Part shown: positions 24,604 through 61,541 of the stretch, piece by piece
Position numbering within the stretch: position 1 is the first letter of the stretch
Layout of the letters: the number at the start of each line of letters is the position of its first letter
Assembly: GCA_964526745.1 (NCBI GenBank)
Contig: CAZGMQ010000009.1
Coordinates: 929-64,928, forward strand
Length of the DNA: 64,000 nucleotides
Origin: an uncultured Verrucomicrobiota bacterium
GTDB taxonomy: Bacteria; Verrucomicrobiota; Kiritimatiellia; CAIQIC01; Lenti-01
Reading direction: 5' to 3'
Notes under the pieces: generated by a model
Seen by the model: the letters and a program-made list of their open reading frames with translations, nothing else
Told to the model about the DNA's origin: nothing
Database searches by the model: none
Made by a program: the position numbers and the translations under genes

Positions 24604-24640
24604 CGGCCCGTGCTCTCCCGAGTGTGGGCCTGTTTTTTCC
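24604..24640 (+). terminator. Rho-independent terminator-like hairpin.
   Basis: GGCCCGUGCUC-UCCC-GAGUGUGGGCC stem (with G-U pairs) followed by UGUUUUUU. Confidence 0.5.
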
Positions 24641-24708
24641 ATAGTGTGGAAACATTTTTTCCATACCATGGAAAAACTGCGAAAATAGTTTCCATACCAT
24701 GGAAACTT
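24634..24708. repeat. Three-box palindromic repeat element, copy A (about 75 bp).
   Basis: Three boxes: TTTTCCATAGTGTGGAAA, TTTTCCATACCATGGAAAA and TTTCCATACCATGGAAA, separated by an ACATTTTT-like spacer and a CTGCGAAAATAG-like spacer. Inverted copy at 41229-41303; direct copy at 61326-61400. Confidence 0.85.
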
Positions 24709-24904
24709 TTGGGCTCGGGCTTATGCCGCCACTGGGCCTCGAGCAGTTTGTGTTATTCTGTAGCCGTTGTGGGTTGTAGGCCGTCCCGACCTCTTGGAGA
24801 GTCGGGATGCGTCCGGCGGAATTCGCGCCCGCTACAGAGGGCGGGCCTGCAATCGGACTGTCCTTGCATCCGAAAAATGCGGCTGCAGAATATCAAGATC
24901 CACT

Positions 24905-26260
24905 TTAGGTCAGCTTGCGGGTGACAAACAGCAGGACGCCCCAGATCAGAAGGGCAACGCAGGCGATGATGAAGATGGGAAGCCCGCCCCAGACGGCAAT
25001 CAGGGGGATGGCCATGCCGGTCCACAATCCGCCGCCCATGAAGGGTTCATGCATCAGCTGCTTGCAGGCGAAGGCTTCGGCGGCGGGTGTCTTGTAATCA
25101 GGATCGACCACGCGCAGGAGTAGGAGTCCGGTGGCCGTCACGCCCATGGACTGGCCCATCTCGGCGATGGCCCGTTCAAACCAGGCGCTGTTCTGGAAGG
25201 CGCGCCGCGCCAGAAATAGAACGCAGAACACATTCCAGACGATGCCAGCGGCAATCAGGATGACAAGTGGAATCCAGCTCTGTGCAATCACATCGATGCG
25301 AATCGTGGCAATGGCGGCGACGACCAGAAAATCGAGCGCGGTATTTTGAATGCGCATGGTGAGGCCATGGTCGATATGGTCGTTGGGGTCGAAGCGATCG
25401 GCAAACAGCTGCACCAGTAGACCGCCCAGCATGCACAGAGGAAAGAGGGGAAAGCTGCTCAGTAGCCTGTGTTTTGCCAGGACGGGGATATGCCCCTCCA
25501 GCAAAACCAGAAGTTCTTTGAAACCATAGCCAATCAGGATAGCGACCGCTACAATGACCAGATGCAGGCTCAGGGATTCGATGACATCGCTGGAGACCGT
25601 CAGCCGTCCGCATGCCTGCCGCTGATCCACCGGGATGCTGCCGGTCCAGTCTTCTTCTTCAATATTTTCATGCGGTGGCTTTTTCTCGACCACATAGCCT
25701 TTTCGGACCGCCCAGTTGATGAGGGCCATGCCGACCAGGATGGCGCTGATGATGCCTCCTGTCGCGCTGGCGAGCGCAAAGTCTTTTCCTTCGGACCAGT
25801 TTAGCTGTTCAAAGACCGGCCCCAGCCCGCCGGCGGTTCCGTGCCCTCCTTCAAAACCGACCGGGAGAATGGCACCAAAGAGGTCATTCAGATGAAAAAT
25901 CGGCCCGAGGAGGAAAATCACTAGGCCAATGCCAACGACATACTGCCCCCAGGCCACCATCTGCCCATAGGCAAGCTGTCGCCCCGCACTTTTGAAGATT
26001 TTGGAGAAACCCGGAATGGCCACGCCGAGAAACAGGCAGGCGAAAACCACATTGATCAGGATGCCCGGCAGCTTGCTCCAGCCCAGCGTCCATTCGGCGG
26101 GGAGGGGCGCGCCAAAGCCCTTAAAGGATTGAAGGAGGGCCAGCCCCAAGAGTCCGGCAATGATGGAAGCGGGAAGATAGAGGTGCTGAAGAAAGACGAG
26201 TTTCCGGCGGAGCCAATACCCCAGACCCAGTAATACCGCGAGACAGACAAATGAAAGCAT
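24905..26260 (-). CDS. gltS: Sodium/glutamate symporter (GltS family).
   Basis: 451 aa multi-TM protein whose N-terminus (LGLGYWLRRKLVFLQHLYLPASIIAGLLGL) matches the GltS family. Confidence 0.65.
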   Translation of the reverse strand: MLSFVCLAVLLGLGYWLRRKLVFLQHLYLPASIIAGLLGLALLQSFKGFGAPLPAEWTLGWSKLPGILINVVFACLFLGVAIPGFSKIFKSAGRQLAYGQMVAWGQYVVGIGLVIFLLGPIFHLNDLFGAILPVGFEGGHGTAGGLGPVFEQLNWSEGKDFALASATGGIISAILVGMALINWAVRKGYVVEKKPPHENIEEEDWTGSIPVDQRQACGRLTVSSDVIESLSLHLVIVAVAILIGYGFKELLVLLEGHIPVLAKHRLLSSFPLFPLCMLGGLLVQLFADRFDPNDHIDHGLTMRIQNTALDFLVVAAIATIRIDVIAQSWIPLVILIAAGIVWNVFCVLFLARRAFQNSAWFERAIAEMGQSMGVTATGLLLLRVVDPDYKTPAAEAFACKQLMHEPFMGGGLWTGMAIPLIAVWGGLPIFIIACVALLIWGVLLFVTRKLT

Positions 26261-26272
26261 GCGTTCTCCTCC

Positions 26273-26479
26273 TTATTCGACGGTGATCTGTTCCCCATGA
26301 TAGGCGATGTGCTGGCCGCGTACAATCTTGCAGCGCTTCCGGGTCTCCATTTTTCCATCCACGGTCACGAGCCCTTCGGCGATGACAATCTTGGCTTCGC
26401 CACCGGACGAACAGAGGTTCGTTAGCTGAAGCAGGTTGCACAGCGGGATAAATTCGCTGGAGAGGGTGAAGGTCAGCAT
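26273..26479 (-). CDS. S4-domain RNA-binding protein (YbcJ-like).
   Basis: Internal ATG gives a roughly 68 aa protein (MLTFTLSSEFIPLCNLLQLT...IAEGLVTVDG) typical of S4-like YbcJ. Confidence 0.5.
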   Translation of the reverse strand: MLTFTLSSEFIPLCNLLQLTNLCSSGGEAKIVIAEGLVTVDGKMETRKRCKIVRGQHIAYHGEQITVE

Positions 26480-26480
26480 C

Positions 26481-39630: not shown

Positions 39631-40452
39631 ATGAGCACACAGGACATCCAACCGGTCACCATCCTGATCCCGCACTACCAGACGCTGGACTCGATCCGCC
39701 TGTGTCTGCGGTCGATCCGCAAGTATACCCAGCAGCCCGTGACCGTCCGGGTGCTGGACAACGGCTCCACAGATGAATCTCTGGCCTATCTCCAGTCGCT
39801 TTCCTGGATCGAGCTGGTCCACACAGGGTGTGCCAATCACATCTGGAAAGCCCATTATAGGGCCCTGAATCAGGCTGTTTTGGATGTCACCACGCCCACG
39901 TTCCTGCTGCTGCACTCCGATACCTATGTGCATCACCCCGATTGGCTGGGCTATCTGTTCCGCCAGATGCAGGGCGGCATGGCCGCTGTGGGCCCCCGTC
40001 ACCAGCGGATTCCCGTCCGGACCCCGCTCTGGGGCGTCTCGGCGGCTGTACAGAGCCTGCGCTCGCGCGAGTTGAAGTCCGGATTGCCTACCTTACGCTC
40101 CTTCTGTGCGCTCTATGACACGGAACTCTTCCGGAAACTGGATTGCGGGTTTGTGACCCATGAGGGCGAAGACATCACCTTGGTCGCCAACGAAAAGCTG
40201 GTGGAGAACGGCTATCCTATCAAGGGGCTCTCCGCCTTCCACCTCTCGAAGGTTCTATTTCATGCTAGTGCCATTACGCTGATTGAGCAAGGGGTCGAGC
40301 CGGTCAAGCGGCAGAATATGGCCGAGGCCTGCCAGACCGGGGAAAGCTATGTCGACCGCCGCACCTATCGCCGCACCCGCCGGATGCTGGACCGGTTTGT
40401 GGCACTCCCGGCCACGCAGGCCATCCTCTCCGACAGCTCGCTCGACGCCTAA
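39631..40452 (+). CDS. Family-2 glycosyltransferase.
   Basis: ILIPHYQ...VRVLDNGSTDESL GT-A N-terminal motif. Confidence 0.6.
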   Translation: MSTQDIQPVTILIPHYQTLDSIRLCLRSIRKYTQQPVTVRVLDNGSTDESLAYLQSLSWIELVHTGCANHIWKAHYRALNQAVLDVTTPTFLLLHSDTYVHHPDWLGYLFRQMQGGMAAVGPRHQRIPVRTPLWGVSAAVQSLRSRELKSGLPTLRSFCALYDTELFRKLDCGFVTHEGEDITLVANEKLVENGYPIKGLSAFHLSKVLFHASAITLIEQGVEPVKRQNMAEACQTGESYVDRRTYRRTRRMLDRFVALPATQAILSDSSLDA

Positions 40453-41225
40453 AACGGGTCAAACAGCTCATTATCGTCCGGCCCGAACCATCCAATGGCG
40501 TGGCTTTCCGACCGCGCGTCGGAGCGTTCGATGCTCTCTGCCGTGACATGCCCGTCGCACCAGGCCACATTCGCTTTGCCCCGGTGCCGGAAATGGATGG
40601 ACGGCCACGGTGTGCCCCCGCTGGCAAACCGCGGCGGTTCAGCGAACGAATACTCAATCAGCCGGGCCTTTTTGCCGCTTCCCGTCAAAAATGCCGCATC
40701 GGCGAACATCACCGTGGTCGCGGGGGAGGCAATCGCCTGCGGACGCATCCCGACGCGGGTCCCGTCGCCGCCGTTCGGCAGACACACCTCCGAGCCCACG
40801 CCCAGCGCATTATAGCCATAGCCGCCGCAGGAGGCCTCAAATCCATCGGCATCGGGGCGGAATCCCGGGCACCGGCGCACCCATTCGCTGGCCCCGCCGC
40901 CGCCCAGATACTCCGCCAGCGGGCCTTTGGAACCATCGAACGCGTTGCCGTCGCGCACGCCGTGCCAGCGGATGGTGTTGGCGCCCTCGATATCGCTCGC
41001 CGCCGCCACGAATCGCCCGTGGTCCACCGCATACGCCAGGTTCGCCGCCACCAGCTGCCGCAGATTCGAGCGGCAGGTTGCGCCGCCCGCCGCCGCCAGC
41101 GCCGCCGTCATCGCCCCGGCCAGAATCGCCGCCAGCAAGCCGATCACCGTCATCACCACTATCAGCTCAATCAGCGTGAAGCCGGCGCCTCCAGCGCGTT
41201 TGCTCGCAACATGCCGTTTCCCCAT
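40449..41225 (-). CDS. Prepilin-type N-terminal cleavage/methylation domain protein of the H-X9-DG (DUF1559) family.
   Basis: MGKRHVASKRAGGAGFTLIELIVVMTVIGLLAAIL pseudopilin leader + helix. C-terminal HFRHRGKANVAWCDGHV = H-x9-DG. Start at 41225 sits directly beside repeat copy B. Confidence 0.8.
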   Translation of the reverse strand: MGKRHVASKRAGGAGFTLIELIVVMTVIGLLAAILAGAMTAALAAAGGATCRSNLRQLVAANLAYAVDHGRFVAAASDIEGANTIRWHGVRDGNAFDGSKGPLAEYLGGGGASEWVRRCPGFRPDADGFEASCGGYGYNALGVGSEVCLPNGGDGTRVGMRPQAIASPATTVMFADAAFLTGSGKKARLIEYSFAEPPRFASGGTPWPSIHFRHRGKANVAWCDGHVTAESIERSDARSESHAIGWFGPDDNELFDPF

Positions 41226-41228
41226 CCG

Positions 41229-41303
41229 TTTTTCCACACTATGGAAAAAGTTTTCGCCGATTTTCCATGGTATGGAAAAAATGTTTCCATAGTGTGGAAA
41301 AAT
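41229..41303. repeat. Three-box palindromic repeat element, copy B (inverted relative to copy A).
   Basis: TTTTTCCACACTATGGAAAAA / TTTTCCATGGTATGGAAAAA / TTTCCATAGTGTGGAAAAA. Lies immediately 5' of the H-X9-DG gene start. Confidence 0.85.
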
Positions 41304-41560: not shown

Positions 41561-43015
41561 TCATCTGTTCAGTTTGTAGCGGAAGAATCCGGCCGTGCCC
41601 TGTACCGGCGCATTCGGGGTCCATGCCACTGGAAACAGATTCGGCGTGTATTCCTTCACGGTCGTGAAGCCGGGCAGAGCGGGGGAGGGGGAGGCTGGGT
41701 CGGTCGAAATCTCAATGAGCGGATGCAGGACACCCACCGCATCCAGATCGAAGCCGCCGGAGCCCCAGGTCGGGGTCGGATCATAGATCGGATTGCTATA
41801 GCTGTCCGTCACCGAACCGTCGCCGAACACATCGGCCAGCCGCACGTGAGTCACACGAAGCGTGTCCAGTCCGGGGGTCCCGGCCAGTTCCCGCAGATCG
41901 AACGGCGTGCCATTCCCCTGCAGATGTTTGCCGGCGAATCCACCATAGGAGGTTGGATCGGAAGTATTCATCGCGCCATAGGTGTCGATGGGGTCGGGCT
42001 CCAAGCTGTGGTTCGCAAAACGGATAAAGTTCGTGCCGTCGGAGGAAACTTCGACAAAGGCCAGCTCCAGAAAATCCTCCGTGAAGGAATTCTCGAACAC
42101 GGCGAAGTCCGGTCCCGGTCCGTCCGTGATGGGCAGAGGGAAGGTCAGCGTGATCGTGCCGCTGTCGCCAAGACTGACCACATTGGTCGAGCCGTTAAAT
42201 CTATCGCCGAGTTCCGCCGCGCCCAGCGCGTTGCTGGCATGCATGAACGGATTGGTCACATTCAGGCCCGGCACATAGGCGGCTACGCCGCTTGCCCAGC
42301 ACAGAATGGCAGGATTCGTCGACGCGATCCCGTCGGAGCTGTCCGCATAGGCATAGGTCAGGTCTGCCGCCGCAAAATACATTGGCGTGTTGGCACCCCA
42401 TTCACCCATATCGGTGGTCACCAGTGTCCCGACGATCGAGACCACCTCCGGCGGCATCCAGGAGAGGTCCAGCGTGGACCAGTTCGTCTGGATGAACGAT
42501 TTTCCATCGCGGAAGTCGGCGAGATAATGATTGGTGACCGCCATGACAGAACCTTCGATATCGCTGGCGGCTAGTGTCAGCACAAAGAAATCGCCGTTGG
42601 TGAAGGCGCGGGCCGGGAAGGAGCCGTTCCGGACCGCTTCGGCTGCCCAGGCCGTATTGTTGATGCGAACCGATTTCGGCGCAGCGGGCAGGTCGAAGCT
42701 GATTTCCGGGGCGGGGTCCCAACTGCTGTGATAGGCTACCGCATAGGCATTCGATAGCGATTCCGCCGCCCCGTATTGATTTGCATAGGTACCGTTGGTC
42801 GTGTTGTTCACTGTGGAGAAGGCAAACCCCGCCCACGAATCATACAGAGCGGAATGGAAATAGGTATTGAGAAAGGTGACCGCTTCATCCGTGGACGGCT
42901 GACTGTTCACAACGCTGTCCGGTGTGGGCACCAGCGCATCGAACGACACGACGGTTTGCGCCGCCCACAAAGGTGGAGAGAAAACGAGCATCAACAGGAT
43001 TAAAAAACGCCGCAT
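41561..43015 (-). CDS. Secreted DUF4465-like protein; candidate cobalamin-binding/acquisition protein.
   Basis: Signal peptide [21 protein letters not shown]-terminal [21 protein letters not shown]...NAYAVAY pattern recalled for DUF4465. Preceded by a cobalamin riboswitch. Confidence 0.55.
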
Positions 43016-43039: not shown

Positions 43040-43250
43040 GCGAGGGCATTCAGTTACAGTTTCTCCGACGTCTCGTCTTCTGGCTTACGGCAATCTACTC
43101 TTCCACCTTCTCCCGCCCGCGAGGGGGCGAAATGGCTTTGCTGGAATTTCGGAACCGATTACAGCGGCGCGACCGCGCGGGATTCTCACCCGCTTCCGTT
43201 AGTCGCCGGAGGGGTCTCCAACAAGGAGACACTTCCGCACCCTAGCACCC
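43040..43250 (-). promoter_or_regulatory. Cobalamin (B12) riboswitch in the 5' leader of the 41561-43015 gene.
   Basis: Minus-strand RNA contains GGAAGCGGGUGAGAAUCCCGCGCGGUCGCGCCGCUGUAAUCGGUUCC (matches the conserved GGUGxxAAUCC...GCCxCUGUAA core). A B12-box-like UAAGCCAGAAGACGAGAC lies about 60 nt before the AUG. A CCCU..AGGG hairpin overlaps the ribosome-binding site. Confidence 0.72.
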
Positions 43251-48731: not shown

Positions 48732-48733
48732 TT

Positions 48734-51504: not shown

Positions 51505-51540
51505 TAAAAAAGGCCGCCGGCGAGTGCCGGCGGCGTGTAT
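51505..51540 (-). terminator. Rho-independent terminator (minus strand) after the 51556-52515 gene.
   Basis: On the minus strand: GCCGCCGGCACUCGCCGGCGGC hairpin followed by CUUUUUUAU. Confidence 0.6.
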
Positions 51541-51555
51541 TAGCGGTTGTTTGAA

Positions 51556-52515: not shown

Positions 52516-52691
52516 CTATTTCCTTTCGCTAATCTACTGGCCATCGCTCTATACTCCGGCACTGCTGGCCTTTTGGCCGGGTGGGTCCTTCCATCCCGCT
52601 ATTCAACCTTCGACGTTGAAGATGCCATTGCAATAGGGGCAGATGTTTTCGCCGCTGTGGAGAATGGTTCTCCTGATAGGTTTCGATTCCG

Positions 52692-53345
52692 TTATCGGTG
52701 CCATGTGACCGGATAGGCCTTCTCTTTGCCATTAACGATTACAAACACTTCCGGATATTCTTCATCTCCTGAAATTTCTTCCTTTTCTTTTCTCCCGCCA
52801 GAAGCGAGGTAAATTTCCTTTTGGAAATCCCCGAATCGAACAATGGCGCGCAAATTTGATGCGGTTTTGTTTTTGATGCTAAATGAAATTCTATATACTC
52901 CGCCGGCAACCCGCCGAAGGTTCGAAAACCCCTGGCCTGTGATGCTGGAGTCGGTGAGGTATGCGCTAACCCCACTGATATTCTTCACGGACCTGTCTTT
53001 TACGCCGAGGATGTTAAATACATAAACCGGGAATTCCTGTTTGGATTGTGCCGCCCGTCGGGACGAAATAGATTTATTGTACCGCGATCGCGCCTGTTGC
53101 ACAGAGGCCCGATATTGGGTTGCTTTTGCAGGATCGTATCCGAAACGTTGTTGCATATCCGATGGGAGTTCCTGGAAAAATAGTTTGGCTATGCCGCCAG
53201 AGTGCATGACGGTTATTCCGTCTGGCTCTGCCCTGGTTATTTTAACGTTTTTGTAAACCGTGCCGAGCATGTTGGTTATATTGTCGGCCATCGCCAATGA
53301 CAGGCAAATGACGATAGCGAATATGGTGCAAAGCATGAGTTTCAT
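52692..53345 (-). CDS. Secreted hypothetical protein.
   Basis: Signal peptide MKLMLCTIFAIVICLSLAMA. Confidence 0.45.
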   Translation of the reverse strand: MKLMLCTIFAIVICLSLAMADNITNMLGTVYKNVKITRAEPDGITVMHSGGIAKLFFQELPSDMQQRFGYDPAKATQYRASVQQARSRYNKSISSRRAAQSKQEFPVYVFNILGVKDRSVKNISGVSAYLTDSSITGQGFSNLRRVAGGVYRISFSIKNKTASNLRAIVRFGDFQKEIYLASGGRKEKEEISGDEEYPEVFVIVNGKEKAYPVTWHR

Positions 53346-53384
53346 TGTGTTTCTCCTTTTATCAAAAAGTTCCTATCAGGTCCC

Positions 53385-53726
53385 CTATTTCCTCAGTTTC
53401 TTCTCCACCGCAGCCACGCGCAACAGGATTTCATCCAGCTTGGCCATTATGGCGCTGGCACCAGGCAAATAGTCCGCCGGATACTCGCGGGTGACCAGCG
53501 GAGGCGTGTCGATTAACTGTTGAACCTTGGGCTTCTCGGGCGGTGCAATCCCGGATTCTCTCTCAGCTTCATCAATTTTAATGAGCATACGGCGGCTAGG
53601 AGATGTCTTGCCAGACTTCCATTGGGACATAGCTGGCGTAGAACAGCCGAGCCGTGTCGCTGTCTTTTGCCAAGTCCAGCCATTGGTATCCATTAACCGG
53701 ACGATTCTGTCCCATGAAAAGGCCAT
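53385..53726 (-). CDS. Phage repressor-like HTH (XRE-type) DNA-binding protein.
   Basis: HTH WTWQKTATRLGCSTPAMSQWKSG. Transcribed divergently from the Ner-like gene. Confidence 0.6.
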   Translation of the reverse strand: MAFSWDRIVRLMDTNGWTWQKTATRLGCSTPAMSQWKSGKTSPSRRMLIKIDEAERESGIAPPEKPKVQQLIDTPPLVTREYPADYLPGASAIMAKLDEILLRVAAVEKKLRK

Positions 53727-53786
53727 GTAAGTATATGTAAGTTTTCCTTGACTGTTTTCTTATACGTTCTTATATTGCCTTACATG
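53724..53786. promoter_or_regulatory. Divergent promoter/operator region between the repressor and the Ner-like gene.
   Basis: Inverted repeat CATGTAAG (53724-31) ... CTTACATG (53779-86); each arm overlaps one of the two start codons. Direct repeat ATGTAAG at 53735. TTGACT (-35) at 53748 and TATATT (-10) at 53771. Confidence 0.55.
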
Positions 53787-54002
53787 ATGCGGCAACCTAT
53801 AGAGAAAAACAAGGGCAAACGCCCATTCGTCATAAGCGGCATCTGCGCGGCTGCTGTCGAACTCGGAGTAACACGTACACACCTTTACCGCGTCCTTCAG
53901 GGAGAGCGGAAAAGCCCGAGAATTGAATCCAGTGAGTTTTATAGGCAGTCCATGGCCGCAAAGCGCCAGTTTGAAAACCAACCGAAAGGGCACGAACAAT
54001 GA
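53784..54002 (+). CDS. Ner-like small HTH DNA-binding protein.
   Basis: HTH AAAVELGVTRTHLYRVLQGERKS. The ORF-track start at 53748 is the TTG of the -35 hexamer; the true start is probably the ATG at 53784. Confidence 0.55.
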   Translation: MMRQPIEKNKGKRPFVISGICAAAVELGVTRTHLYRVLQGERKSPRIESSEFYRQSMAAKRQFENQPKGHEQ

Positions 54003-54892
54003 GTCGAAAATACAAGATCATCGGGTTCGAGTGGATTGAAAAGACCAGCCTGAAGCCGCATCCGGATGCGCAGTTGCCGATGGCGCCGACGGACCAGGCA
54101 TTCCTGAAGAACAGCATCCAGAGCGGAGGTCTGATCCAGCCGCTGCTGGTGCTGGAGAAGGCCGACAAGCTGGATGGGATGTTTCAGGTGGTGGATGGCT
54201 GCAACCGATTCGACAGCGATCCAATCGACGGAAAATTCCCCTGCGTCCTGATCCAGTGCGACAATGTGCGCGAAGTGGCCCTGGAATGCCTTGGCACCGG
54301 TCGCCAGCGGTCGGCCGGGAACCGGATTCTGTCCTACATGGAATTGCATCGGGCAGAGGTGGTCAAGGCGGCTGAATTTGGGGCGATTGCGGCGGCCGGA
54401 AATTCGTTTGGGGTGTCACGTGACACCCCAAAAATACAGGGGAATTTGTCCAATTTTACCTCCGAAGCTATCGCAGCGACCCTTTCAGTCAGCAAAAAAG
54501 ACGTTCTCCTTGCCATCGATTTGCTGATGTGTTTGGAGCGGAAATGCACGGCGCCGGTGAAGGCCGGGGCGCTGATGACACCACCGCGGAAACTGGACCT
54601 GAAAAAGAAGGAAGACCAGGTCTATTTCGAGCTGCTGAAGCAGACACATGCGGGCGTGATGGGCGGGGGCTCGCCAATCCGTCGCTGGAAGGCCGGCCTG
54701 GCGGGCAAGCATTCGCAGGCCGAAGGGCGGACGGCCATCGATTACGCGATGCTGTTCAAGGAAGGGCTGCACCATCTGCGGTCGGCAGCGAAGCACTGGG
54801 AGGACATCACGTTCGAGGACCGCGCAACGCTGGTGGAACTGGCATCGCAAGTCGGCGTGCTGCTGCCGTCTGACATCAAGCGGGTGCTGTGA
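53999..54892 (+). CDS. ParB-like nuclease-domain protein.
   Basis: N-terminal ParB/Srx fold pattern (PLLVLEKADKLDGMFQVVDGCNRF); high GC3. Confidence 0.55.
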   Translation: MSRKYKIIGFEWIEKTSLKPHPDAQLPMAPTDQAFLKNSIQSGGLIQPLLVLEKADKLDGMFQVVDGCNRFDSDPIDGKFPCVLIQCDNVREVALECLGTGRQRSAGNRILSYMELHRAEVVKAAEFGAIAAAGNSFGVSRDTPKIQGNLSNFTSEAIAATLSVSKKDVLLAIDLLMCLERKCTAPVKAGALMTPPRKLDLKKKEDQVYFELLKQTHAGVMGGGSPIRRWKAGLAGKHSQAEGRTAIDYAMLFKEGLHHLRSAAKHWEDITFEDRATLVELASQVGVLLPSDIKRVL

Positions 54893-55428
54893 TGAAGCGG
54901 GCAACCAAGGTTATTTCTTCCAGAGGAAAGGGAAAAGAGGAATTGGCTTCCACCCGCGCGGATAGGGCTCTCCAAACGGCCAGCGGACCAAAGCGCGGCC
55001 AATTTCCCAATAAGCCAAACAGGCGCGGCCAATCTCTTCGGAAAGGCCCGTCAGCGAATCTGGTTTCGGCTGAAGGCTCGAAAAAGCCTCGTGTACGGGC
55101 TTTGCGGAAGTCAAAAGCTGAAGGGCAAGGAAGCGAATACGAAACACTTTGCTTGGCGGCCAAATCTGTTGCCAGCGGTCTCTCATTTCTTGAGTTCCTG
55201 CGATGTAGTCAAGGGCGGCATCCATGTGTTTCTCGGACCATTCGCACCAGGAAGGAAGCCCAATTCTTTGCAGGATTAGTCGAAGACGCTTTATATCTTC
55301 TTCCCGAAACGTGCGGCGCAGTTCTGCTTCGGATCGCTCGGCAAATGAAGACGGAATTTCGGGGATTGAAGTTACCACGGGACAAAATCTATCAAACCGC
55401 GCGGCGCGGTGGAAGCCGAAAGGGTTAA
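54889..55428 (+). CDS. Highly basic hypothetical protein (uncertain; low GC3).
   Basis: ATGA overlap with the ParB-like stop; its stop lies 2 nt before the downstream ATG after an AAGGG Shine-Dalgarno. GC3 is about 50%, against about 75% in the neighbouring genes. An alternative antisense ORF exists at 54911-55483. Confidence 0.35.
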   Translation: MMKRATKVISSRGKGKEELASTRADRALQTASGPKRGQFPNKPNRRGQSLRKGPSANLVSAEGSKKPRVRALRKSKAEGQGSEYETLCLAAKSVASGLSFLEFLRCSQGRHPCVSRTIRTRKEAQFFAGLVEDALYLLPETCGAVLLRIARQMKTEFRGLKLPRDKIYQTARRGGSRKG

Positions 55429-55430
55429 GA

Positions 55431-57302
55431 ATGTCCACCCGCCCGTACAACGACCGCGAACAGGCCCGGATTGCCGTATGCAAGAAGGCGCAGGCGCTGA
55501 TTGCCGACGGGGCGACAATGAAACGGGCGGCAAAGGCGGCGGGAACCTCCCAGGGCTCGCTGGAGCGGTGGATGCGGGCATGGCGTAGTGAAGGGCCGGA
55601 CGGCCTGCGGGACGACTACGGTGCGGTGGGGCGGCCGGCGGTGGCGGATTGCCTGGACCAAACATCCATCGATTTCATCCGTCGCAAAGCGGCGAAGTGC
55701 GGCAGCATGGCGCTAACCTATCAGTTCTTCGTTGACGATCCGGCCTGTCCCCAGGAACTCCGGGATTATCTGATTCCCAGGCTAACCAGTGGCAAACCCC
55801 TTTCCCTTCCTCTTTCCCTGCGCCGCGCGGCGAATGTGATTCCCGATCTGGCCGCGCGGCATCGAAGCGATGTCGCCTTCGGGCACATCGGCTTCAAGAC
55901 ACGTCACAGCGATATGGTGATTGATCCGCGCACGGGCCAGGAGCGCCGTCTGATGGCCGGCGACATTTACCTTTCTGACGATATGTCCACCAATCATCCC
56001 TTCTGGTTCGAGCTGCCCGATGGCGAGATCAAGACGCGGGCCGATCGGGGGAGCAAGCTTGCGGAGCGCTTTGGCGTGGCCGTGGGCCGCCAAGGTCTCT
56101 ATACCATTGATGCTCGCGGCAAGTGGCTCGGGTGCGAACTGATCGCCCGCCCGACGGATGCCTATACCTCCGCGGATGTCCTGCGGCACTTCCGCCGGAT
56201 CCTGGCGGAGTTCGGCTTGCCGCGCATTGCCTGGATCCTCGAAAAGGGCGTCTGGATGGCCCGGACGGTCGATGGCCGCATGAAGGTGCTCATTGACGAC
56301 GATGCTCGTGAAGAGACCGTCGCCGGTCTTTCCACGCTTGGATTCAGCGTCAATCATGTCCACACCTCCGAGGGCAAGGCCCTGATTGAGGGGGCGTTCC
56401 ACCACTTCCAGGATATCTGCGACCTGATGGAGCTTCCGAACGTGGGCCGCAAGCGTGGCGAGATGGAGCGGGTTGAAAAGGTGATGACCCGCATCCGCAG
56501 CGGCGTGATCCATCCGCGCGATGCCGGGATCCCGCATGTCACCGCCCAGGTCCTGAATCTGAACAAGGCCCAGGTGTTCTTCAATGGCAAGCACAAGAAT
56601 GGCCGCATCCAGCACGGCGTTCCCGACGAGGTCTGGCTGCGCGACACCACCACTCATCCGCTCCGAAAACTTGAACCTGGCCACATGGGAGTCTTCATGC
56701 CCGCAAAATACGCAACGATGATTCGCCAGGGGCATGCTGACAAGACACTGGAGGGAACGACCTATCGCTTCCACAACGAGGTGTTCGGACGGCTGGGCGC
56801 GGGATACCGCCTCGCAATAGCATTCGATCCAGGCGAACCGCAGGCCGGCGCCGAGGTCTACAATCTGGAGACCGGCAGCCGGAACATCGACCGCCATTCC
56901 CCCAACGCGTGGATCTGCCACGCGGAACTGGAGATCGACTCGCCACTATATGGCTACTCGCCGGAAGTGGCCGAGGCCACCCGCCGGAAGAAGAAGCACA
57001 CCCGCGCCTTCCAGAGCGCGTATGCGGGCACCGGCCTCTTCGGCAAGGGCGCGGGCCGAGCCATCGAGCGGCGCGAGGCCGACGGCCGCCTGATCCGCAT
57101 GGAAACCAATATCGGGGATGCTGGAGGAACGGATCGACCCGGTTCGTGTCGTGCCCTACCGGTCGGAACAGAATCCAGCATCCCCACCAATCGAACGGTC
57201 CGCAGGAAAGAACTCACAGCTAAGCAAGTCATCAATGCAGAGGCCAAGGCCGATGCCCTGGAGGCTCGCCTGCGAGATCGAGGAATGTTGCTGCCGCAAT
57301 GA
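55431..57302 (+). CDS. Mu A-like protein (putative transposase) with an N-terminal HTH. The DDE core is not confidently recognised.
   Basis: 623 aa. N-terminal HTH (GATMKRAAKAAGTSQGSLERWMRAW). Lies upstream of a MuB-like ATPase. The ORF-track start at 55224 is an out-of-character extension. Confidence 0.5.
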   Translation: MSTRPYNDREQARIAVCKKAQALIADGATMKRAAKAAGTSQGSLERWMRAWRSEGPDGLRDDYGAVGRPAVADCLDQTSIDFIRRKAAKCGSMALTYQFFVDDPACPQELRDYLIPRLTSGKPLSLPLSLRRAANVIPDLAARHRSDVAFGHIGFKTRHSDMVIDPRTGQERRLMAGDIYLSDDMSTNHPFWFELPDGEIKTRADRGSKLAERFGVAVGRQGLYTIDARGKWLGCELIARPTDAYTSADVLRHFRRILAEFGLPRIAWILEKGVWMARTVDGRMKVLIDDDAREETVAGLSTLGFSVNHVHTSEGKALIEGAFHHFQDICDLMELPNVGRKRGEMERVEKVMTRIRSGVIHPRDAGIPHVTAQVLNLNKAQVFFNGKHKNGRIQHGVPDEVWLRDTTTHPLRKLEPGHMGVFMPAKYATMIRQGHADKTLEGTTYRFHNEVFGRLGAGYRLAIAFDPGEPQAGAEVYNLETGSRNIDRHSPNAWICHAELEIDSPLYGYSPEVAEATRRKKKHTRAFQSAYAGTGLFGKGAGRAIERREADGRLIRMETNIGDAGGTDRPGSCRALPVGTESSIPTNRTVRRKELTAKQVINAEAKADALEARLRDRGMLLPQ

Positions 57303-57334
57303 CGCGGCAGCCAAATAAATAGGAGAGCACCGGC

Positions 57335-58330
57335 ATGGCAACGCTCAAAAATAAAGACAAGAAAAAGACCCCAGCGGAAGAGCTGGTGGCACTCGCCCAG
57401 GTCATTCGCGAATGGCAGATAGGCAAAGGGTATTCCATCGCAGCGCTGCTGCGGAAATACGCAGGCCTCGGCTCCGACCGGACCTATAACCGGCTCGTGA
57501 CCGGCGATACGTCCGACCTGAATGTCGAGAAACAGCTGCTAAACTATCAGACCGTCTGGTCACTCATTGAAGCCGTCGGCGACAAAGATCGCGATCGGGA
57601 AGAGTTCTATGATGATTTCTCCTCTGCCGTTCAGTTGCGCCGGGCCGCCATGGAAGTTTTTGTTGAAACTGGGATCAACCGGTTTCTCCTGGTCCAGGGC
57701 GACACCGGATCCGGCAAAACCACCGCTGCCCTGCTGCTCCAGAAGCGCTATGGCGCCCATCGTGTGCGGAGGATTGAGCTCTCGCCGTGGCTGAATGACA
57801 GCCCGCTGGCCTTTCTGGTTATGATTATTGAAGCCTTCGGCCAGGAAGCCCCTCACGGCAGTCAACAATGCTGGAAAAAGGCTGTTGAACTGCTTGGCGC
57901 CGGCCGCTGCTGCCTTGTCTTTGATGAGCTGCACCACGCCGGACCACGGGTCCTCAACACCATCAAGAGCCTGATCAACGCCACACCAGGCGAATTCATC
58001 GGCCTCACGATGAAAACCCTGTGGTATCGCCTCGAAAAGAAGAGTTATGAAGAAGTCCGGCAGCTGACCGGCAACCGCCTCGCCGAGCGGATCCAGCTCG
58101 ATCGGATGAATCAATCCGACCTGGTCAAGTATTTGAGCCGGCGCCTTCCGAAGCTGGAAAAGGGAGCCGACTTCGGCGCCGCCACCATGCTCGCGGAAAA
58201 CTCCAGAGGCAAAGGAAACATGGCCTTTGCTCGAGCCGTCTGCCGCGCCGCTGTCGAGCGATACGAAGACAAACCCATCACCATTCAGGATTTCGCGGCC
58301 GTCGTGGCCTCGGAACGCCAGCGCAGATAG
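57335..58330 (+). CDS. MuB-like AAA+ ATPase (transposition helper).
   Basis: N-terminal HTH-like segment, Walker A GDTGSGKTT, Walker B CLVFDELHH. C-terminal AENSRGKGNMAFARAVCRAA resembles the MuB C-terminal region. Confidence 0.6.
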   Translation: MATLKNKDKKKTPAEELVALAQVIREWQIGKGYSIAALLRKYAGLGSDRTYNRLVTGDTSDLNVEKQLLNYQTVWSLIEAVGDKDRDREEFYDDFSSAVQLRRAAMEVFVETGINRFLLVQGDTGSGKTTAALLLQKRYGAHRVRRIELSPWLNDSPLAFLVMIIEAFGQEAPHGSQQCWKKAVELLGAGRCCLVFDELHHAGPRVLNTIKSLINATPGEFIGLTMKTLWYRLEKKSYEEVRQLTGNRLAERIQLDRMNQSDLVKYLSRRLPKLEKGADFGAATMLAENSRGKGNMAFARAVCRAAVERYEDKPITIQDFAAVVASERQRR

Positions 58331-58341
58331 AGGAAAACATC

Positions 58342-58968
58342 ATGGCAAAGAAAATATATATCGATCCCGAAGGCAGAGCGATTCCCCCCAAATACGTGTC
58401 GCCCTATGACAAGGCCCGCGACCGCATTGCGCGCCAGATCCACGCGGACTGGGAGAAAGAGGAAGATCGCCTGCGCAAATTGAAGGCCCGGACCCAAGCC
58501 AGGATTCAAGCGCTGCGGGAGCTGGCGGCAAACGACAGCGACGTCAAGCTCGGCGGATCCGCCGGTTATCTCCAGTTCCGGAGCTTCGATGGCAAGACCA
58601 TCATCCGCCTGGAGAACGTCAAACAGTACGAATTCGACGAAAAGATGGAGATGGCCCTGCAGCTGATCAACGAGGCCATCGACGATATGTCCGGCAAGGC
58701 CAAGCGGTCCAGGAGCGTCAATGTGGCCCAGCTGCGGAAGATTGCAACGGCCGCCTTCCAGCCGCGCGGGAAGAACGGGAAGCTCGATCGTCAGCGCGTG
58801 CTCGATATTACCCGCCTCGACATCGACCACCCCAAGTGGCGCCGCGCCTGCGAGCTGATCCGCGAAGCCGAGCGCGTCACCGGCCATCGGCAATACATCC
58901 GCGTGGCCACCATGGAAGGACTGCCCCCGAAGCAGCTTCCCATCATTCTCGACATCTCGAAAGTTTAG
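58342..58968 (+). CDS. DUF3164-like Mu-type early protein.
   Basis: 208 aa in the position and size typical of DUF3164 in Mu-like early regions. Confidence 0.4.
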   Translation: MAKKIYIDPEGRAIPPKYVSPYDKARDRIARQIHADWEKEEDRLRKLKARTQARIQALRELAANDSDVKLGGSAGYLQFRSFDGKTIIRLENVKQYEFDEKMEMALQLINEAIDDMSGKAKRSRSVNVAQLRKIATAAFQPRGKNGKLDRQRVLDITRLDIDHPKWRRACELIREAERVTGHRQYIRVATMEGLPPKQLPIILDISKV

Positions 58969-59654: not shown

Positions 59655-59839
59655 GAGAACACCATGGGCGATGGAACATACAAACGGACGCGACGGGACA
59701 ATCGGAAGACAGTCTATCGCCCCGGCAAGCTAGGGAAAGGGCTGATCGTGCAGGCGGACAAAACCGTCTATCGCAAGATGCCGAACGGGTCTCTTGTCCG
59801 CATGGGCAAGCTGGAAGAGCGCACCGGAGAAGTGATGTA

Positions 59840-60388
59840 ATGAGCGACACCCGTCAACAGAAAGCCATGGCCGGCGCCGCTTGCGCCCCCCTCAGCCGGA
59901 TCCAGAAGCGGAACATCTGCATGCTGGCTGCCGAGGCGTGGGAGCGCGCCGGCCGTCCCTTCTTCGATCCGAACATGGATCCGGCCTTTGCCCTGTGCAA
60001 AACCTCAGCCCTCGAGCTGTGGCGGCATGAGCAGCAGGAACGCCTGACCGGCCGCAAGCATCTGACCCGCTGCGGACAGGCCGACTATCTTCTGTTGAAG
60101 TCCCACTTTGAACGCCTTGCCGGCAAGGCCCGCCAGGCAGAGGCAGACGAACGGCGCATGCCCGGCGATGACAACCGCCAGGCTCAAGCCGTGCTGCGCC
60201 GGGAGATATCGGTGGCACGCCGGCAGATCGCGGATCCGCGACGCTATGCTGCGACTATTGCCCAGGCCAAATACAAAACCGGCCTCGACAACCTCTCTTC
60301 GAAACAGACATGGACCATCATTTTTGACCTGCGCCGCGCGGCGTCGGGTCGCAAGAAAAAAGCCAATCAACCCAACACCCCATTTTGA
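59840..60388 (+). CDS. Hypothetical early protein.
   Basis: ATG at 59840 overlaps the upstream stop (TAATGA); it is the C-terminal part of ORF-track 59237-60388. Confidence 0.35.
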   Translation: MSDTRQQKAMAGAACAPLSRIQKRNICMLAAEAWERAGRPFFDPNMDPAFALCKTSALELWRHEQQERLTGRKHLTRCGQADYLLLKSHFERLAGKARQAEADERRMPGDDNRQAQAVLRREISVARRQIADPRRYAATIAQAKYKTGLDNLSSKQTWTIIFDLRRAASGRKKKANQPNTPF

Positions 60389-60401
60389 GAGGAGACCAGG
60401 C

Positions 60402-60623
60402 ATGGAACTCAAATTGAATAATGGATCGACAATTCGCCCCGCTGAAGGGGATGTAATCTGCCACCGCGGCAGCAGCATCACCGCCCAGCTTCTAGCCCGC
60501 AGTTGCGCCGGTAAGCCGCTAGACGGCTCCCGCGCCCATGGACAGGCACAATTCCCTCTCTCCAGTTCGCGGGCCTTCGCGGGGGGTATAAAGCGCTATT
60601 TAATCGGACGGGGGACAAAATGA
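60402..60623 (+). CDS. Small hypothetical protein.
   Basis: ATG after a GAGGAGACC Shine-Dalgarno. Confidence 0.35.
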   Translation: MELKLNNGSTIRPAEGDVICHRGSSITAQLLARSCAGKPLDGSRAHGQAQFPLSSSRAFAGGIKRYLIGRGTK

Positions 60624-60898
60624 GCCAGCCCAAACGAATCGTTGCCATTCTCTTCGAAGAAAACGCAGACGAACGCGGCAACATCACCCTCAAAAAGTTG
60701 ACGACTGCTCAATGGGTCACCGTCGCCTATATTGCCAATGCCATGACCGTCTCCGAGCAGACCATGTATCGCCTGATTGTGGATGGCCAGGTCATGCCCT
60801 ACCACCGCGTCGGCATCCAGATCCGCGTGGATGTCGCTGATTTCTATGAATACTACAAGAAATGCGAGCACGTTGAATACGAAAGGCCAGGTGCGTGA
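60620..60898 (+). CDS. HTH DNA-binding protein (excisionase/Mor-like).
   Basis: VAYIANAMTVSEQTMYRLIVDGQVMPYHRVG helix-turn-helix. Confidence 0.45.
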   Translation: MSQPKRIVAILFEENADERGNITLKKLTTAQWVTVAYIANAMTVSEQTMYRLIVDGQVMPYHRVGIQIRVDVADFYEYYKKCEHVEYERPGA

Positions 60899-61233
60899 TG
60901 ATGGAACAAATGACACTGGTCCCTCGCAAAGAGACTTCCGCCGAGGCCGATGCCCCGGTCCTGTCCCGGCATCTGTATCTGGCAATGGAATGGCGCAAGC
61001 GCAAGGAGCTGATGGAGGCTCTCGGCTGGCCTGACTGGCGGATCCGCCATGCGGCCGAAGCCGCCGGGGGCGATATCATTTTTGGGCAGCGTGGAATGAA
61101 GCACATCCGCCATGCCACCCAGGAGGAATACTGCGCCTTCTGCAACACATTCAAGAGCCAGATCGCGGCCAACAGTCTCCGCCTGGTAACCACGCAGCAG
61201 AAATGGCACAAATTCAACGCAGGCCCGGCATGA
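60895..61233 (+). CDS. Hypothetical protein.
   Basis: ORF track; ATGA-type overlap with the upstream gene. Confidence 0.35.
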   Translation: MMMEQMTLVPRKETSAEADAPVLSRHLYLAMEWRKRKELMEALGWPDWRIRHAAEAAGGDIIFGQRGMKHIRHATQEEYCAFCNTFKSQIAANSLRLVTTQQKWHKFNAGPA

Positions 61234-61541
61234 ATGAATCCAAAGCCGATCAAGAAGTCGAAGAGGCCATCCGGATGATTGGCGCGGCGCCAGGTGTTCA
61301 ACCAAAACTGTATTTCCGGACAAGAAATCTTCCATGGTATGGAAAAATGTTTCGCGGATTTTCCACAGTATGGAAGAAATGTTTCCATAGTGTGGAAAGT
61401 GATCAGCCGCGGGAACACTGCGCAGATATAATGAAACGCGCCTTTGCAGCGTATGGCTATGCCGACGCTTCGCCTTGGAACCCGACACCGCGCGCCACTC
61501 TCCGCAAACTCCGCTCCGGATCCATGGAGGAAGTGTCATGA
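61203..61541 (+). CDS. Hypothetical protein carrying an in-frame 78-bp insertion of the palindromic repeat (copy C).
   Basis: The ORF reads through 61326-61400 as ...NLPWYGKMFRGFSTVWKKCFHSVES... Confidence 0.3.
   Translation: MAQIQRRPGMNESKADQEVEEAIRMIGAAPGVQPKLYFRTRNLPWYGKMFRGFSTVWKKCFHSVESDQPREHCADIMKRAFAAYGYADASPWNPTPRATLRKLRSGSMEEVS
61326..61400. repeat. Three-box palindromic repeat element, copy C.
   Basis: TCTTCCATGGTATGGAAAAA / TTTTCCACAGTATGGAAGAAA / TTTCCATAGTGTGGAAAG; same orientation as copy B. Confidence 0.85.

What the first reader, a model, noticed from the sequence alone, without database searches (positions are those of the whole stretch)
24634..61400. A roughly 75-bp three-box palindromic repeat family present three times (24.6 kb, 41.2 kb, 61.3 kb)
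Each copy holds three AT-rich palindromic boxes, TTTCCA-N5-TGGAAA and TTCCAT-N3-ATGGAA, in a conserved order with GC-containing spacers. The boxes are highly similar between copies but in differing order and orientation. Copy B abuts the start codon of the H-X9-DG prepilin-like gene. Copy A sits in a convergent intergenic region just after a terminator. Copy C is an exact-length (78 bp, in-frame) insertion inside a phage early ORF. This dyad-symmetric, multi-box structure suits an operator array for a dimeric regulator, or a REP/MITE-like mobile repeat. Its presence in both host and phage-derived DNA points to something mobile or widely recruited.
Basis: seen in the sequence. Interest (0 to 1): 0.55.

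Follow-up and report, generated by a model that had tools for sequence, protein, structure and literature searches.

The report
Phased palindrome arrays in Kiritimatiellia genomes
The three copies are real members of a previously undescribed family of short intergenic DNA arrays found across Kiritimatiellia bacteria; their symmetry, fixed helical spacing and conservation suggest docking sites for an unidentified DNA-binding protein rather than a jumping element or an RNA.

Summary
The window has nine copies of a 17-19 bp dyad box (wTTTTCCA-YRSYR-TGGAAAAw) and no others. They form three arrays, box1-31 bp-box2-22 bp-box3, at 24.6, 41.2 and 61.3 kb; chance expectation is 0.01.

The same unit occurs in 14 contigs of Kiritimatiellia/Verrucomicrobiota MAGs and in at least 120 metagenome contigs. 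It occurs in none of 2.9 million viral contigs.

Across about 560 boxes, start-to-start spacing is quantised at 22, 30-32, 41-44, 51, 61-62 and 72-73 bp, which are whole helical turns. Spacer sequences are free. Arrays hold 2-10 boxes and often repeat an 83-bp three-box module.

Arrays are intergenic, in every gene-orientation class, next to unrelated genes. Some sit at orthologous sites in genomes whose flanking proteins are only 60-73% identical (ftsH-folP; DUF4465-prepilin, which is copy B). Copy A is absent from relatives.

Inner box positions keep a symmetric identity without base-pair covariation. A second half-site type (TTTTACGT) forms hybrid boxes. No terminal repeats, target duplications or linked transposase were found.

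Best reading: cooperative binding arrays for an unidentified dimeric, probably genome-wide, DNA-binding protein. The "in-frame insertion" claim for copy C cannot be shown.

The parts
24635..24706 (.). Array A: three 19-bp boxes (24635-24653, 24657-24675, 24688-24706) with spacings 22 then 31 on the + strand, which is inverted relative to B and C.
   Evidence: It lies between convergent genes 23643-24572(+) and the Glt symporter 24905-26260(-). It is absent from the orthologous spot in relatives L146-L149.
24605..24640 (+). Intrinsic-terminator-like hairpin and T-run of the upstream gene. The T-run merges into the first box of array A.
41230..41301 (.). Array B: boxes at 41230-41248, 41261-41279 and 41283-41301 (spacings 31, 22 on the + strand).
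   Evidence: The position is conserved between the DUF4465 and prepilin-like genes in L141-L144, and is held by a variant box in L145.
40449..41225 (-). Prepilin-type (N_methyl, weak DUF1559) gene whose ATG lies 5 nt from array B.
   Evidence: The N-terminus reads MGKRHVASKRAGGAGFTLIELIVVM.
41561..43015 (-). DUF4465 gene upstream of array B in the same operon.
43075..43197 (-). Cobalamin riboswitch heading the DUF4465-[array B]-prepilin operon.
   Evidence: 69.7 bits, gathering score 31.5.
61328..61399 (.). Array C: boxes at 61328-61346 (first base C instead of T), 61359-61377 and 61381-61399 (spacings 31, 22).
   Evidence: It is identical in contigs L136-L140. Its closest relative is the host array in L114.
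61230..61541 (+). 103-codon open frame running through array C, with ATGA start/stop overlaps to both neighbouring ORFs. It is called as a gene by public pipelines and has no homologues.

Best explanation
The three copies belong to a Kiritimatiellia-wide family of intergenic arrays of a 19-bp palindromic box, wTTTTCCA-Y-R-S-Y-R-TGGAAAAw. Box centres are set a whole number of helical turns apart: 22 or 31 bp, and rarely 41, 51, 62 or 73 bp. All dyads therefore face one side of the DNA.

I propose that each box binds a homodimeric sequence-specific DNA-binding protein, with each monomer reading TTTTCCAY(R). Neighbouring dimers would contact each other along one face and form a cooperative nucleoprotein array of 2-10 dimers. 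The common unit is three boxes (31+22, repeating every 83 bp).

Arrays occur about once per 20-60 kb, in every kind of intergenic context and beside unrelated genes. The binder is therefore more likely a genome-wide factor (nucleoid-associated, insulator or roadblock type) than a regulator of particular genes. Arrays inside operons (ftsH-folP; riboswitch-DUF4465-[array B]-prepilin) would locally modulate read-through or expression of the downstream gene.

The prophage copy C is a host-type array carried, and probably acquired by recombination, by a Mu-like prophage.

Shown: the family, its symmetry, phasing, distribution, conservation and turnover. Inferred: that a protein binds, that binding is cooperative, and what it is for. 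The binder is not identified.
For: (1) Non-random and lineage-wide.
- The window holds 9 boxes against 0.01 expected.
- The two-box pattern occurs in 14 contigs of Kiritimatiellia/Verrucomicrobiota MAGs and at least 120 metagenome contigs.

(2) Phasing.
- Spacing counts are 22 bp x181, 30-32 x193, 41-44 x14, 51 x6, 61-62 x3 and 72-73 x3, with almost nothing in between.
- Among 149 31-bp pairs the commonest spacer sequence occurs only 3 times. Central spacer positions carry 0.2-0.8 bits.
- Orthologous arrays interconvert 22 and 31 bp by 9-bp indels.

(3) Symmetric identity without pairing.
- Positions 5, 6 and the centre are Y (C .68/T .32), R (.89) and S (.98).
- Y..R combinations (CG 232, CA 152, TG 137, TA 31) show no excess of pairing combinations; CA and TG run somewhat above the independence expectation and TA below it.
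- Position 6/8 combinations (AT 51, GT 42, GC 41, AC 38) are independent.

(4) Purifying selection.
- In the ftsH-folP spacer of L002/L063/L101, and in L013/L131 (flanks 67-69% identical), boxes are kept while spacers and flanks diverge.
- Array B's site is occupied in five relatives with DUF4465 60-73% identical. The forms are 3 boxes, an inverted 3, at least 4, 6 (a duplicated 83-bp unit), or two boxes with a different core.

(5) Modular half-sites. TTTTACGT half-sites form homotypic and hybrid boxes in phase with ordinary ones, as expected if each monomer of a dimer reads one half-site.

(6) No gene specificity.
- Context classes are tandem 63, convergent 16, divergent 11, against background 384/91/72.
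- There is no shared neighbouring gene family.
Against: - No binding protein is identified, and no candidate gene is enriched near arrays.
- All evidence is comparative sequence analysis.
- Palindromes also fold as RNA or DNA hairpins (z -5.7 to -7.7 on both strands).
- Some arrays sit at breakpoints of homology (L097/L116, L135/L114, the 1.1-kb element set), and copy A is not conserved in relatives. Turnover or mobility therefore also plays a part.
- The metagenome sample was selected by requiring one 22-bp pair, so the count of 22-bp spacings is inflated.
- Gene calls used for context classes came from my own crude caller.
Confidence: 0.55

Rival explanations
1. A selfish, REP/BIME- or MITE-like mobile repeat that spreads through intergenic DNA, mobilised in trans by a transposase that recognises the palindromes. 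Conservation would be a by-product of recent spread or homogenisation. This is not exclusive of protein binding.
For: - The family is multi-copy and dispersed, and arrays often lie at contig ends, so they break assemblies.
- Gain and loss occur: copy A is absent in relatives that carry a DUF5916 gene there instead, and there is a 3-kb indel beside an array in L116 versus L097.
- An array is present in a prophage.
- About 13 contigs share homology on one side of the array only.
- Hybrid contig L135 joins the phage flank to the L114 host flank across the array.
- Arrays grow by duplication of an 83-bp unit.
Against: - There are no conserved termini, terminal inverted repeats or target duplications; flanks turn generic within 3-4 nt.
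- Box number and order vary freely.
- No transposase is linked. The only RAYT-like ORF (L018) is 12 kb from that locus' array.
- Orthologous arrays persist across 60-73% protein identity, with boxes conserved and spacers diverged. Recent insertion does not predict this.
- Spacer length is conserved without spacer sequence, unlike BIME linkers.
- The boxes are AT-rich, with no GTAG head. A separate GC-rich GTAGG-type REP-like family exists in the same genomes.
Confidence: 0.2
2. The arrays act as RNA. They would form tandem hairpins in polycistronic mRNAs or 3' ends that stabilise, terminate or direct processing of transcripts, as REP hairpins do in E. coli.
For: - Predicted folding is strong (z -5.7 to -7.7).
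- Most arrays lie within operons or after 3' ends, often filling the whole spacer.
- Array A follows a terminator.
Against: - The inner stem positions show no covariation (AT/GC/GT/AC about equal; CA as frequent as TG). On the sense strand the mismatching C..A (65) outnumbers U.G (31).
- The would-be loop shows symmetric conservation (YRSYR with a C/G centre), which a loop does not need.
- Array orientation is unbiased relative to transcription (8 versus 6).
- Arrays occur as often as expected between divergent genes.
- Helical-turn spacing has no meaning for RNA.
- No Rfam family matches.
Confidence: 0.1
3. The arrays are DnaA-box clusters (datA/DBC-like) that titrate or regulate the replication initiator. 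The half-site TTTTCCACA fits the stringent DnaA box TTWTNCACA and equals the cyanobacterial DnaA box.
For: - About 35% of half-sites are exactly TTTTCCACA.
- TTTTCCACA is used as a DnaA box in cyanobacteria (PMC4674748).
- DnaA prefers closely spaced box pairs (PMC11317965).
Against: - In L045, the spacers around dnaA-dnaN carry single boxes TTGTTCACA, TTATTCACA, TGTCCACA and one TTTTCCACA. None is a palindromic box.
- DnaA boxes keep CACA and vary at positions 3 and 5. Array half-sites keep TTTTCCA and vary at positions 8 and 9.
- The two-fold symmetry and the ACGT-core variant do not fit a monomeric, head-to-tail DnaA oligomer.
- The largest arrays flank ordinary genes, not ori genes.
Confidence: 0.07
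4. The arrays are a tripartite operator set (lambda OL/OR-like) for the repressor of the Mu-like prophage, with host copies as relics of prophages.
For: - There are three 17-bp dyad sites per array, as in lambda operators (sequence).
- Copy C lies in the early region of a Mu-like prophage.
Against: - There are 0 hits in 2.9 million viral contigs with two patterns.
- Copies lie in housekeeping spacers conserved across genera.
- No repressor gene or divergent promoters lie beside any copy.
- Copy C is about 7 kb downstream of the transposase operon start.
Confidence: 0.03

Closest known systems
E. coli REP/BIME elements (including IHF-binding RIP and gyrase-binding BIME-2)
   Same: Both are dispersed, strictly extragenic, modular mosaics of palindromic units with variable copy number per site. 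Both occur within operons and at 3' ends, and both have been proposed as protein-binding platforms.
   Different: REPs are GC-rich imperfect palindromes with a GTAG head, alternate in orientation with conserved linker motifs, and are tied to RAYT transposases. Here the boxes are perfect AT-flanked dyads and the linkers are conserved in length only. No RAYT link was found, and a separate GTAGG-type REP-like family coexists in these genomes.
Genome-wide palindromic sites of nucleoid organisers: ParB-parS, Noc-NBS, SlmA-SBS, MatP-matS
   Same: These are short palindromes scattered at tens of sites per chromosome, bound by a dimer, with specificity that can drift between paralogues. By eye the half-site TTTTCCAC shares 6 of 8 bases with the parS half TGTTTCAC and resembles the NBS half ATTTCCC. 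This comparison comes from my memory of the consensus sequences and was not tested.
   Different: Those sites are single, 12-16 bp, often inside genes and not arranged in phased arrays. Here the half-sites are 3 bp further apart and always clustered in intergenic DNA. No canonical parS is present in the window.
Lrp/AsnC-type (e.g. Ss-LrpB, pap, ilvIH) and ArgR-type phased operator arrays
   Same: Both have several 15-19 bp dyad boxes spaced by 2-3 helical turns and bound cooperatively on one DNA face. Three-box arrangements are common.
   Different: Those arrays sit at the promoters of a defined regulon. Here there is no promoter or regulon association, and the box sequence is unrelated.
Phage lambda OL/OR tripartite operators
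   Same: Three 17-bp dyad-symmetric sites lie side by side.
   Different: Lambda operators flank the repressor gene and overlap promoters. These arrays are mainly chromosomal, number in the tens per genome (extrapolated from the sampled contigs), and are absent from viral databases.
DnaA-box clusters (datA, B. subtilis DBCs)
   Same: Both are intergenic clusters of a 9-mer that fits TTWTNCACA, located away from oriC.
   Different: The conservation pattern and two-fold symmetry do not match DnaA recognition. oriC-side boxes in a related contig are of another form.
Streptococcus pneumoniae BOX elements and mycobacterial MIRUs
   Same: These are modular intergenic repeats with a variable number of internal units, located inside operons, and sometimes translatable in frame.
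   Different: BOX and MIRU units are 40-100 bp, conserved in sequence and not built from a short phased palindrome.

Membership tests
REP/BIME | A GC-rich imperfect palindrome of 20-40 nt with a conserved 5' GTAG/GGAG head. | tested here: not met
   The box profile from 558 boxes is wTTTTCCAYRSYRTGGAAAAw, with AT-rich arms and no GTAG.
REP/BIME | Association with a RAYT (Y1 transposase) gene flanked by the repeats. | tested here: inconclusive
Whole genomes were not available.
REP/BIME | Extragenic, multi-copy, modular clusters. | tested here: met
REP/BIME | Linkers between units are conserved sequence motifs. | tested here: not met
   Among 149 31-bp pairs the commonest spacer sequence occurs only 3 times; only the length is conserved.
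MITE | Terminal inverted repeats and target-site duplication around a unit of fixed length. | tested here: not met
   In 275 outward flanks there is no conserved sequence beyond 3-4 nt and no duplication. Unit length varies from 2 to 10 boxes.
DnaA-box cluster | 9-mers matching TTWTNCACA, with the CACA core the most conserved part. | tested here: not met
   About 35% of half-sites match. However, positions 8 and 9 are the variable ones (C .68/T .32; A .51/G .38), while TTTTCCA is fixed (positions -2..-1 87-89% T; TTCCA fixed by the search). oriC-side boxes in L045 differ in form.
Phage tripartite operator (lambda-like) | Sites flank a repressor gene, overlap divergent promoters and occur in phage genomes. 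| tested here: not met
   There are no hits in viral contigs, no repressor adjacent, and host housekeeping contexts.
Intrinsic terminator | A GC-rich stem followed by a U-run. | tested here: not met
   The scan finds the separate hairpin at 24605-24630, not the boxes. The boxes have AT-rich stems, and arrays also occur between divergent genes.
Any Rfam RNA family | A match to a curated covariance model. | tested here: not met
   The window at gathering threshold gave only a cobalamin riboswitch and a group II intron. An array-bearing stretch at E<=1 gave only chance miRNA/snoRNA hits.
ParB/Noc-type site (parS/NBS) | A single 14-16 bp palindrome bound by a ParB-family CTPase. | not testable with these tools
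   The half-site resemblance is by eye only. Geometry differs (19 bp, arrays), and no canonical parS is in the window.

The most novel reading that the evidence does not exclude
The arrays are the chromosomal sites of a new, lineage-specific nucleoid-organising or insulating protein system. It would compare in rank with ParB-parS, Noc-NBS, SlmA-SBS or MatP-matS, but would use cooperative, helically phased multi-dimer platforms placed only between genes. Specificity would co-evolve with the sites (CCAC-type versus ACGT-type half-sites, with hybrid boxes implying heterodimers of two paralogues). Arrays would double as recombination substrates that shape gene content and prophage decay.
Probability: 0.25. 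Interest if true: 0.7.

Novelty: new variant of a known kind. Interest (0 to 1): 0.5.

Why it matters
Kiritimatiellia are an abundant but barely studied lineage in anoxic sediments, digesters and guts. Almost nothing is known about how their genes and chromosomes are organised.

A conserved, genome-wide, precisely phased binding-site array implies an abundant sequence-specific DNA-binding protein that nobody has described. It also gives a ready bait (a 72-bp three-box unit) to fish that protein out.

The existence of two half-site types and hybrid boxes offers a natural experiment in co-evolution of a protein and its sites.

Practically, the arrays break metagenome assemblies and mislead gene callers, which extend ORFs through them. 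Knowing the motif therefore improves annotation of these genomes.

Tried and rejected
- Common neighbour gene or candidate binder. All-against-all comparison of flanking ORFs (at least 80 aa and at least 45 aa) found only generic families: ABC ATPases in 8 loci, Ser/Thr kinases in 6 and FtsH in 4.
- Enrichment upstream of prepilin genes. Only the window's copy B qualifies.
- Origin of replication. The largest arrays flank GluRS, AlaRS, T2SS-K and similar genes.
- Stop-codon avoidance. Three-box arrays are open in 78% of frames against 21% in shuffles, and spacers looked depleted of stop triplets. The cause is general TA avoidance and the A...T layout: GTA and TAC are as rare as TAG and CTA. 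This is not a special property, but it makes "in frame" uninformative.
- Synteny of L009 with copy A. The same gene family is nearby but not at the same position.
- rRNA/tRNA as the conserved flank of about 13 loci. There were no Rfam hits.
- Literature searches for the motif and for repeats in Kiritimatiellia found nothing relevant.
- L038/L056/L105 turned out to be an unrelated two-box operator (TTCCATAAAATGGAA) caught by the pattern.
- A sigma-70 or sigma-54 promoter reading of the boxes was considered by eye and dropped: hexamer spacing does not fit, and there is no GC at -12.
- Organism name via cluster look-up returned no names.

Full report
**1. The observation**

Reading the three sites and scanning the window shows exactly nine boxes of the form TTCCA-N5-TGGAA. 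They are grouped in three arrays: A at 24635-24706, B at 41230-41301 and C at 61328-61399. For the 17-mer with up to two mismatches there are 17 strand-hits against 0.01 expected. The looser 15-mer finds nothing else beyond chance.

All three arrays share one architecture: box, a 14-nt spacer containing TTTCGCnG, box, the 5-nt spacer AAATG, box. Start-to-start spacings are 31 and 22 bp.

**2. Context in the window**

Positions 1-43 kb are ordinary chromosome. They carry:
- Mla transport genes and patatin/Omp85;
- a Glt symporter and ArgRS;
- a ParA-like ATPase;
- nusA-infB-rbfA-truB-ribF.

Array A lies between convergent genes, straight after a terminator-like hairpin.

Array B lies inside an operon: a cobalamin riboswitch (43075-43197), then DUF4465, then the array, then a prepilin-type gene whose ATG is 5 nt from the last box.

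Positions 43.5-64 kb hold Mu-like prophage material:
- a D12 methylase, a Mu portal and a large terminase on the minus strand;
- a transposase, a MuB-like ATPase, DUF3164 and an excisionase-like HTH on the plus strand.

A group II intron sits at 62.56 kb. Array C lies in the run of small early ORFs.

**3. The family outside the window**

A strict two-box pattern hits 14 contigs in the one-genome-per-species collection. All are Kiritimatiellia or "Verrucomicrobiota" MAGs, several with 2-3 contigs each. Most carry the same three-box unit, including the spacer.

They come mostly from digesters, bioreactors and sludge. Neither pattern hits any of 2.9 million viral contigs.

Homologues of the window's flanking proteins are annotated Kiritimatiellia, Verrucomicrobia or Lentisphaerae. 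Full-text searches found no paper that mentions the motif.

**4. Anatomy from about 560 boxes**

The box is really 19 bp: wTTTTCCA-Y-R-S-Y-R-TGGAAAAw. Position by position:
- Position 5 is C .68 / T .32 and never a purine.
- Position 6 is a purine in 89%.
- The centre is C or G in 98%.

Start-to-start spacings are quantised: 22 (181), 30-32 (193), 41-44 (14), 51 (6), 61-62 (3) and 72-73 (3). Almost nothing falls in between. These are multiples of about 10.3 bp. The 22 class is inflated by the search pattern; the other classes are not.

Arrays hold 2-10 boxes. Three is as common as two among arrays of two or more, and (31,22,30)n repeats with an 83-bp period recur.

Spacers of the 31-bp class are nearly all different in sequence but fixed in length. 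Beyond the outermost box the sequence becomes generic within 3-4 nt. There are no terminal repeats and no target duplications.

**5. DNA site or RNA stem**

The arrays fold well as RNA on both strands (z -5.7 to -7.7), as any palindrome does. The inner positions, however, do not covary:
- Y..R combinations are CG 232, CA 152, TG 137 and TA 31, showing no excess of pairing combinations; CA and TG run somewhat above the independence expectation and TA below it.
- Position 6/8 combinations are AT 51, GT 42, GC 41 and AC 38.

On the sense strand of co-directional gene pairs the non-pairing C..A (65) outnumbers U.G (31). Array orientation is unbiased (8 versus 6). What is conserved is a symmetric identity (Y, R, then a central C:G). 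A two-fold symmetric protein reading double-stranded DNA would impose this; a hairpin loop would not. Helical-turn spacing points the same way.

**6. Where arrays sit**

Using a crude gene caller with arrays masked, arrays lie between genes. They are often 3-60 bp from both neighbours. The context classes are tandem 63, convergent 16 and divergent 11. That matches the background of adjacent gene pairs (384/91/72). Arrays are therefore neither promoter-specific nor 3'-end-specific.

Flanking genes are unrelated across loci. There is no enrichment at prepilin genes. Extra arrays within the fetched loci suggest roughly one per 20-60 kb.

**7. Conservation and turnover**

- *ftsH-folP spacer.* Three taxa (L002, L063, L101; flanks 76-91% identical) keep 4-5 boxes, while spacers and flanks are unalignable.
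- *L013 and L131.* Flanks are 67-69% identical. The pair shows the same pattern, with 22-to-31 switches by 9-bp indels and one decayed box.
- *Array B's site.* The synteny DUF4465, prepilin, nusA, infB holds in L141-L145, where DUF4465 is 60-73% identical. The spacer carries different forms in different relatives. It holds 3 boxes in the window and L141, and 3 boxes in the inverted order in L142. L143 has at least 4 boxes and L144 has 6, a duplicated unit. L145 has two palindromes, TTTTACGTRCTACGTAAAA, 22 bp apart.
- *The ACGT-core half-site.* It recurs, homotypic or as hybrid boxes (TTTTACGT-N3-GTGGAAAA), in phase with ordinary boxes in L031, L045, L097 and L109. Half-sites thus behave as independent modules.
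- *Array A.* By contrast, it is absent from four relatives. The closest relative has a DUF5916 gene at that spot.
- *L116 versus L097.* L116 has 3 kb of extra DNA beside its array.

**8. Copy C**

The 103-codon frame through the array has ATGA overlaps with both neighbours, and public pipelines call it as a gene. It has no homologues among 5.8 billion proteins apart from near-identical copies of the same prophage ORF from other contigs (one of them the L135 junction). An array-free ancestor therefore cannot be shown. Three-box arrays are stop-free in 78% of frames because of their composition and TA avoidance, so "in frame" carries little weight.

Array C's nearest relative is a host array in L114, which comes from the same sample series as phage contig L136. 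A 626-bp contig (L135) joins the phage left flank to L114's array and right flank. This is either recombination across two near-identical arrays or an assembly chimera. Either way the phage copy looks borrowed from the host family.

**9. Rivals**

- *Mobile REP/MITE-like repeat.* The dispersal, turnover and breakpoint associations fit. The defining features were tested and not met: head motif, conserved linkers, terminal repeats, target duplications and a linked transposase. Long-term orthologous conservation of boxes argues for function. A separate GC-rich GTAGG-type REP-like family exists beside arrays A and B.
- *DnaA boxes.* TTTTCCACA fits TTWTNCACA and is the cyanobacterial box (PMC4674748). 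However, in L045 the dnaA-dnaN spacers use single TTGTTCACA, TTATTCACA and TGTCCACA boxes. The array's conservation pattern is also the reverse of DnaA's.
- *Prophage operator.* This is excluded by the distribution.
- *Known RNA.* No Rfam match was found.

**10. Verdict**

It is a lineage-wide, undescribed family of helically phased palindrome arrays. The best-supported mechanism is cooperative binding of an unidentified dimeric protein along one DNA face, acting genome-wide rather than at particular genes (confidence about 0.55). A selfish-repeat component comes second (about 0.2). Function beyond binding is inferred, not shown.

Noticed in passing
window 43075-43197 (-): A cobalamin riboswitch (Rfam 69.7 bits) heads the DUF4465-[array B]-prepilin-like operon. 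The DUF4465-prepilin-nusA-infB order is conserved in relatives.
   Followed up: partly
window 62559-62807 (+), ORF 62575-63999: Group II intron domains D1-D4 (104.6 and 43.8 bits), with a long ORF running off the window. The intron is inserted in the Mu-like prophage region about 1.2 kb past array C.
   Followed up: no
window 43567-58968: Mu-like modules face opposite ways: portal and terminase (44699-47524) on the minus strand, transposase, MuB-like ATPase and DUF3164 (55224-58968) on the plus strand. This suggests two prophage remnants or a rearranged one. A caspase-domain gene lies at 49969-50691.
   Followed up: no
window 41314-41382 and 24776-24814; also L141 about 5050-5110: GC-rich hairpin pairs starting GTAGG (for example AGGTAGGGACGGCACACCGTGCCGTCCG / CGGACGCCTCGGCGAGGCGTCCCTACCT) lie beside arrays A and B. 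They look like a classical REP/REPIN family distinct from the AT-flanked boxes. A RAYT-like ORF lies in L018 215-595 (-).
   Followed up: partly
window 43291-43304 and 52236-52249: Two copies of the palindrome TTTTGGATCCAAAA, with similar left flanks, lie 8.9 kb apart near the left edge of and inside the prophage region.
   Followed up: no
L007 4757-5849; also L043, L060, L084, L113, L133, L020, L024, L041, L042, L088, L123: A conserved GC-rich region of about 1.1 kb with no coding signal ends at an array.

RNAalifold on six sequences predicts 201 pairs, 24 of them with compensatory double changes, and no Rfam family matches.

On the other side of the array the DNA is variable (type III and MmeI-like restriction systems, subtilases, an M78 peptidase). 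A part of about 300 bp recurs inverted 5-8.5 kb away.

This may be a new large structured RNA or the end of a mobile or defence island.
   Followed up: partly
L145 4973-5013; L097 593-642; L031 395; L045 8137; L109 13665: A second half-site type, TTTTACGT, forms homotypic and hybrid 19-bp boxes in phase with the ordinary TTTTCCAC boxes. In L145 it replaces them at the site orthologous to array B.
   Followed up: partly
L135 1-626 versus window 60984-61400 and L114 137-385: A short contig is identical to the phage left of array C, and identical to host contig L114 from the array rightwards. It is either a recombinant across two near-identical arrays or an assembly chimera.
   Followed up: partly
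L001 about 375-400; L013 about 6295-6320; L144 about 5112-5135: AT-rich palindromes with TATAAT-like cores lie next to arrays (CTATCACTTATAATTATAAGTGATAG; TCTCGGTTATAATTATAACCGAGA; CTATACTATTTGCAAATACTATAG). They may be bidirectional promoters or another binding site.
   Followed up: no
L038 877-913, L056 3017-3053, L105 3059-3095: An unrelated two-box operator-like motif (TTCCATAAAATGGAA-N7-TTCCATTTTATGGAA) lies just upstream of a conserved gene start. It was caught by the search pattern but is not part of the family.
   Followed up: partly
L045 3970-4250 and 5622-5958: These are putative oriC-side spacers around dnaA-dnaN in a related contig. They carry DnaA-type boxes TTGTTCACA/G, TTATTCACA, TGTCCACA (x2) and TTTTCCACA. 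A partly decayed array lies 2.4 kb upstream.
   Followed up: partly
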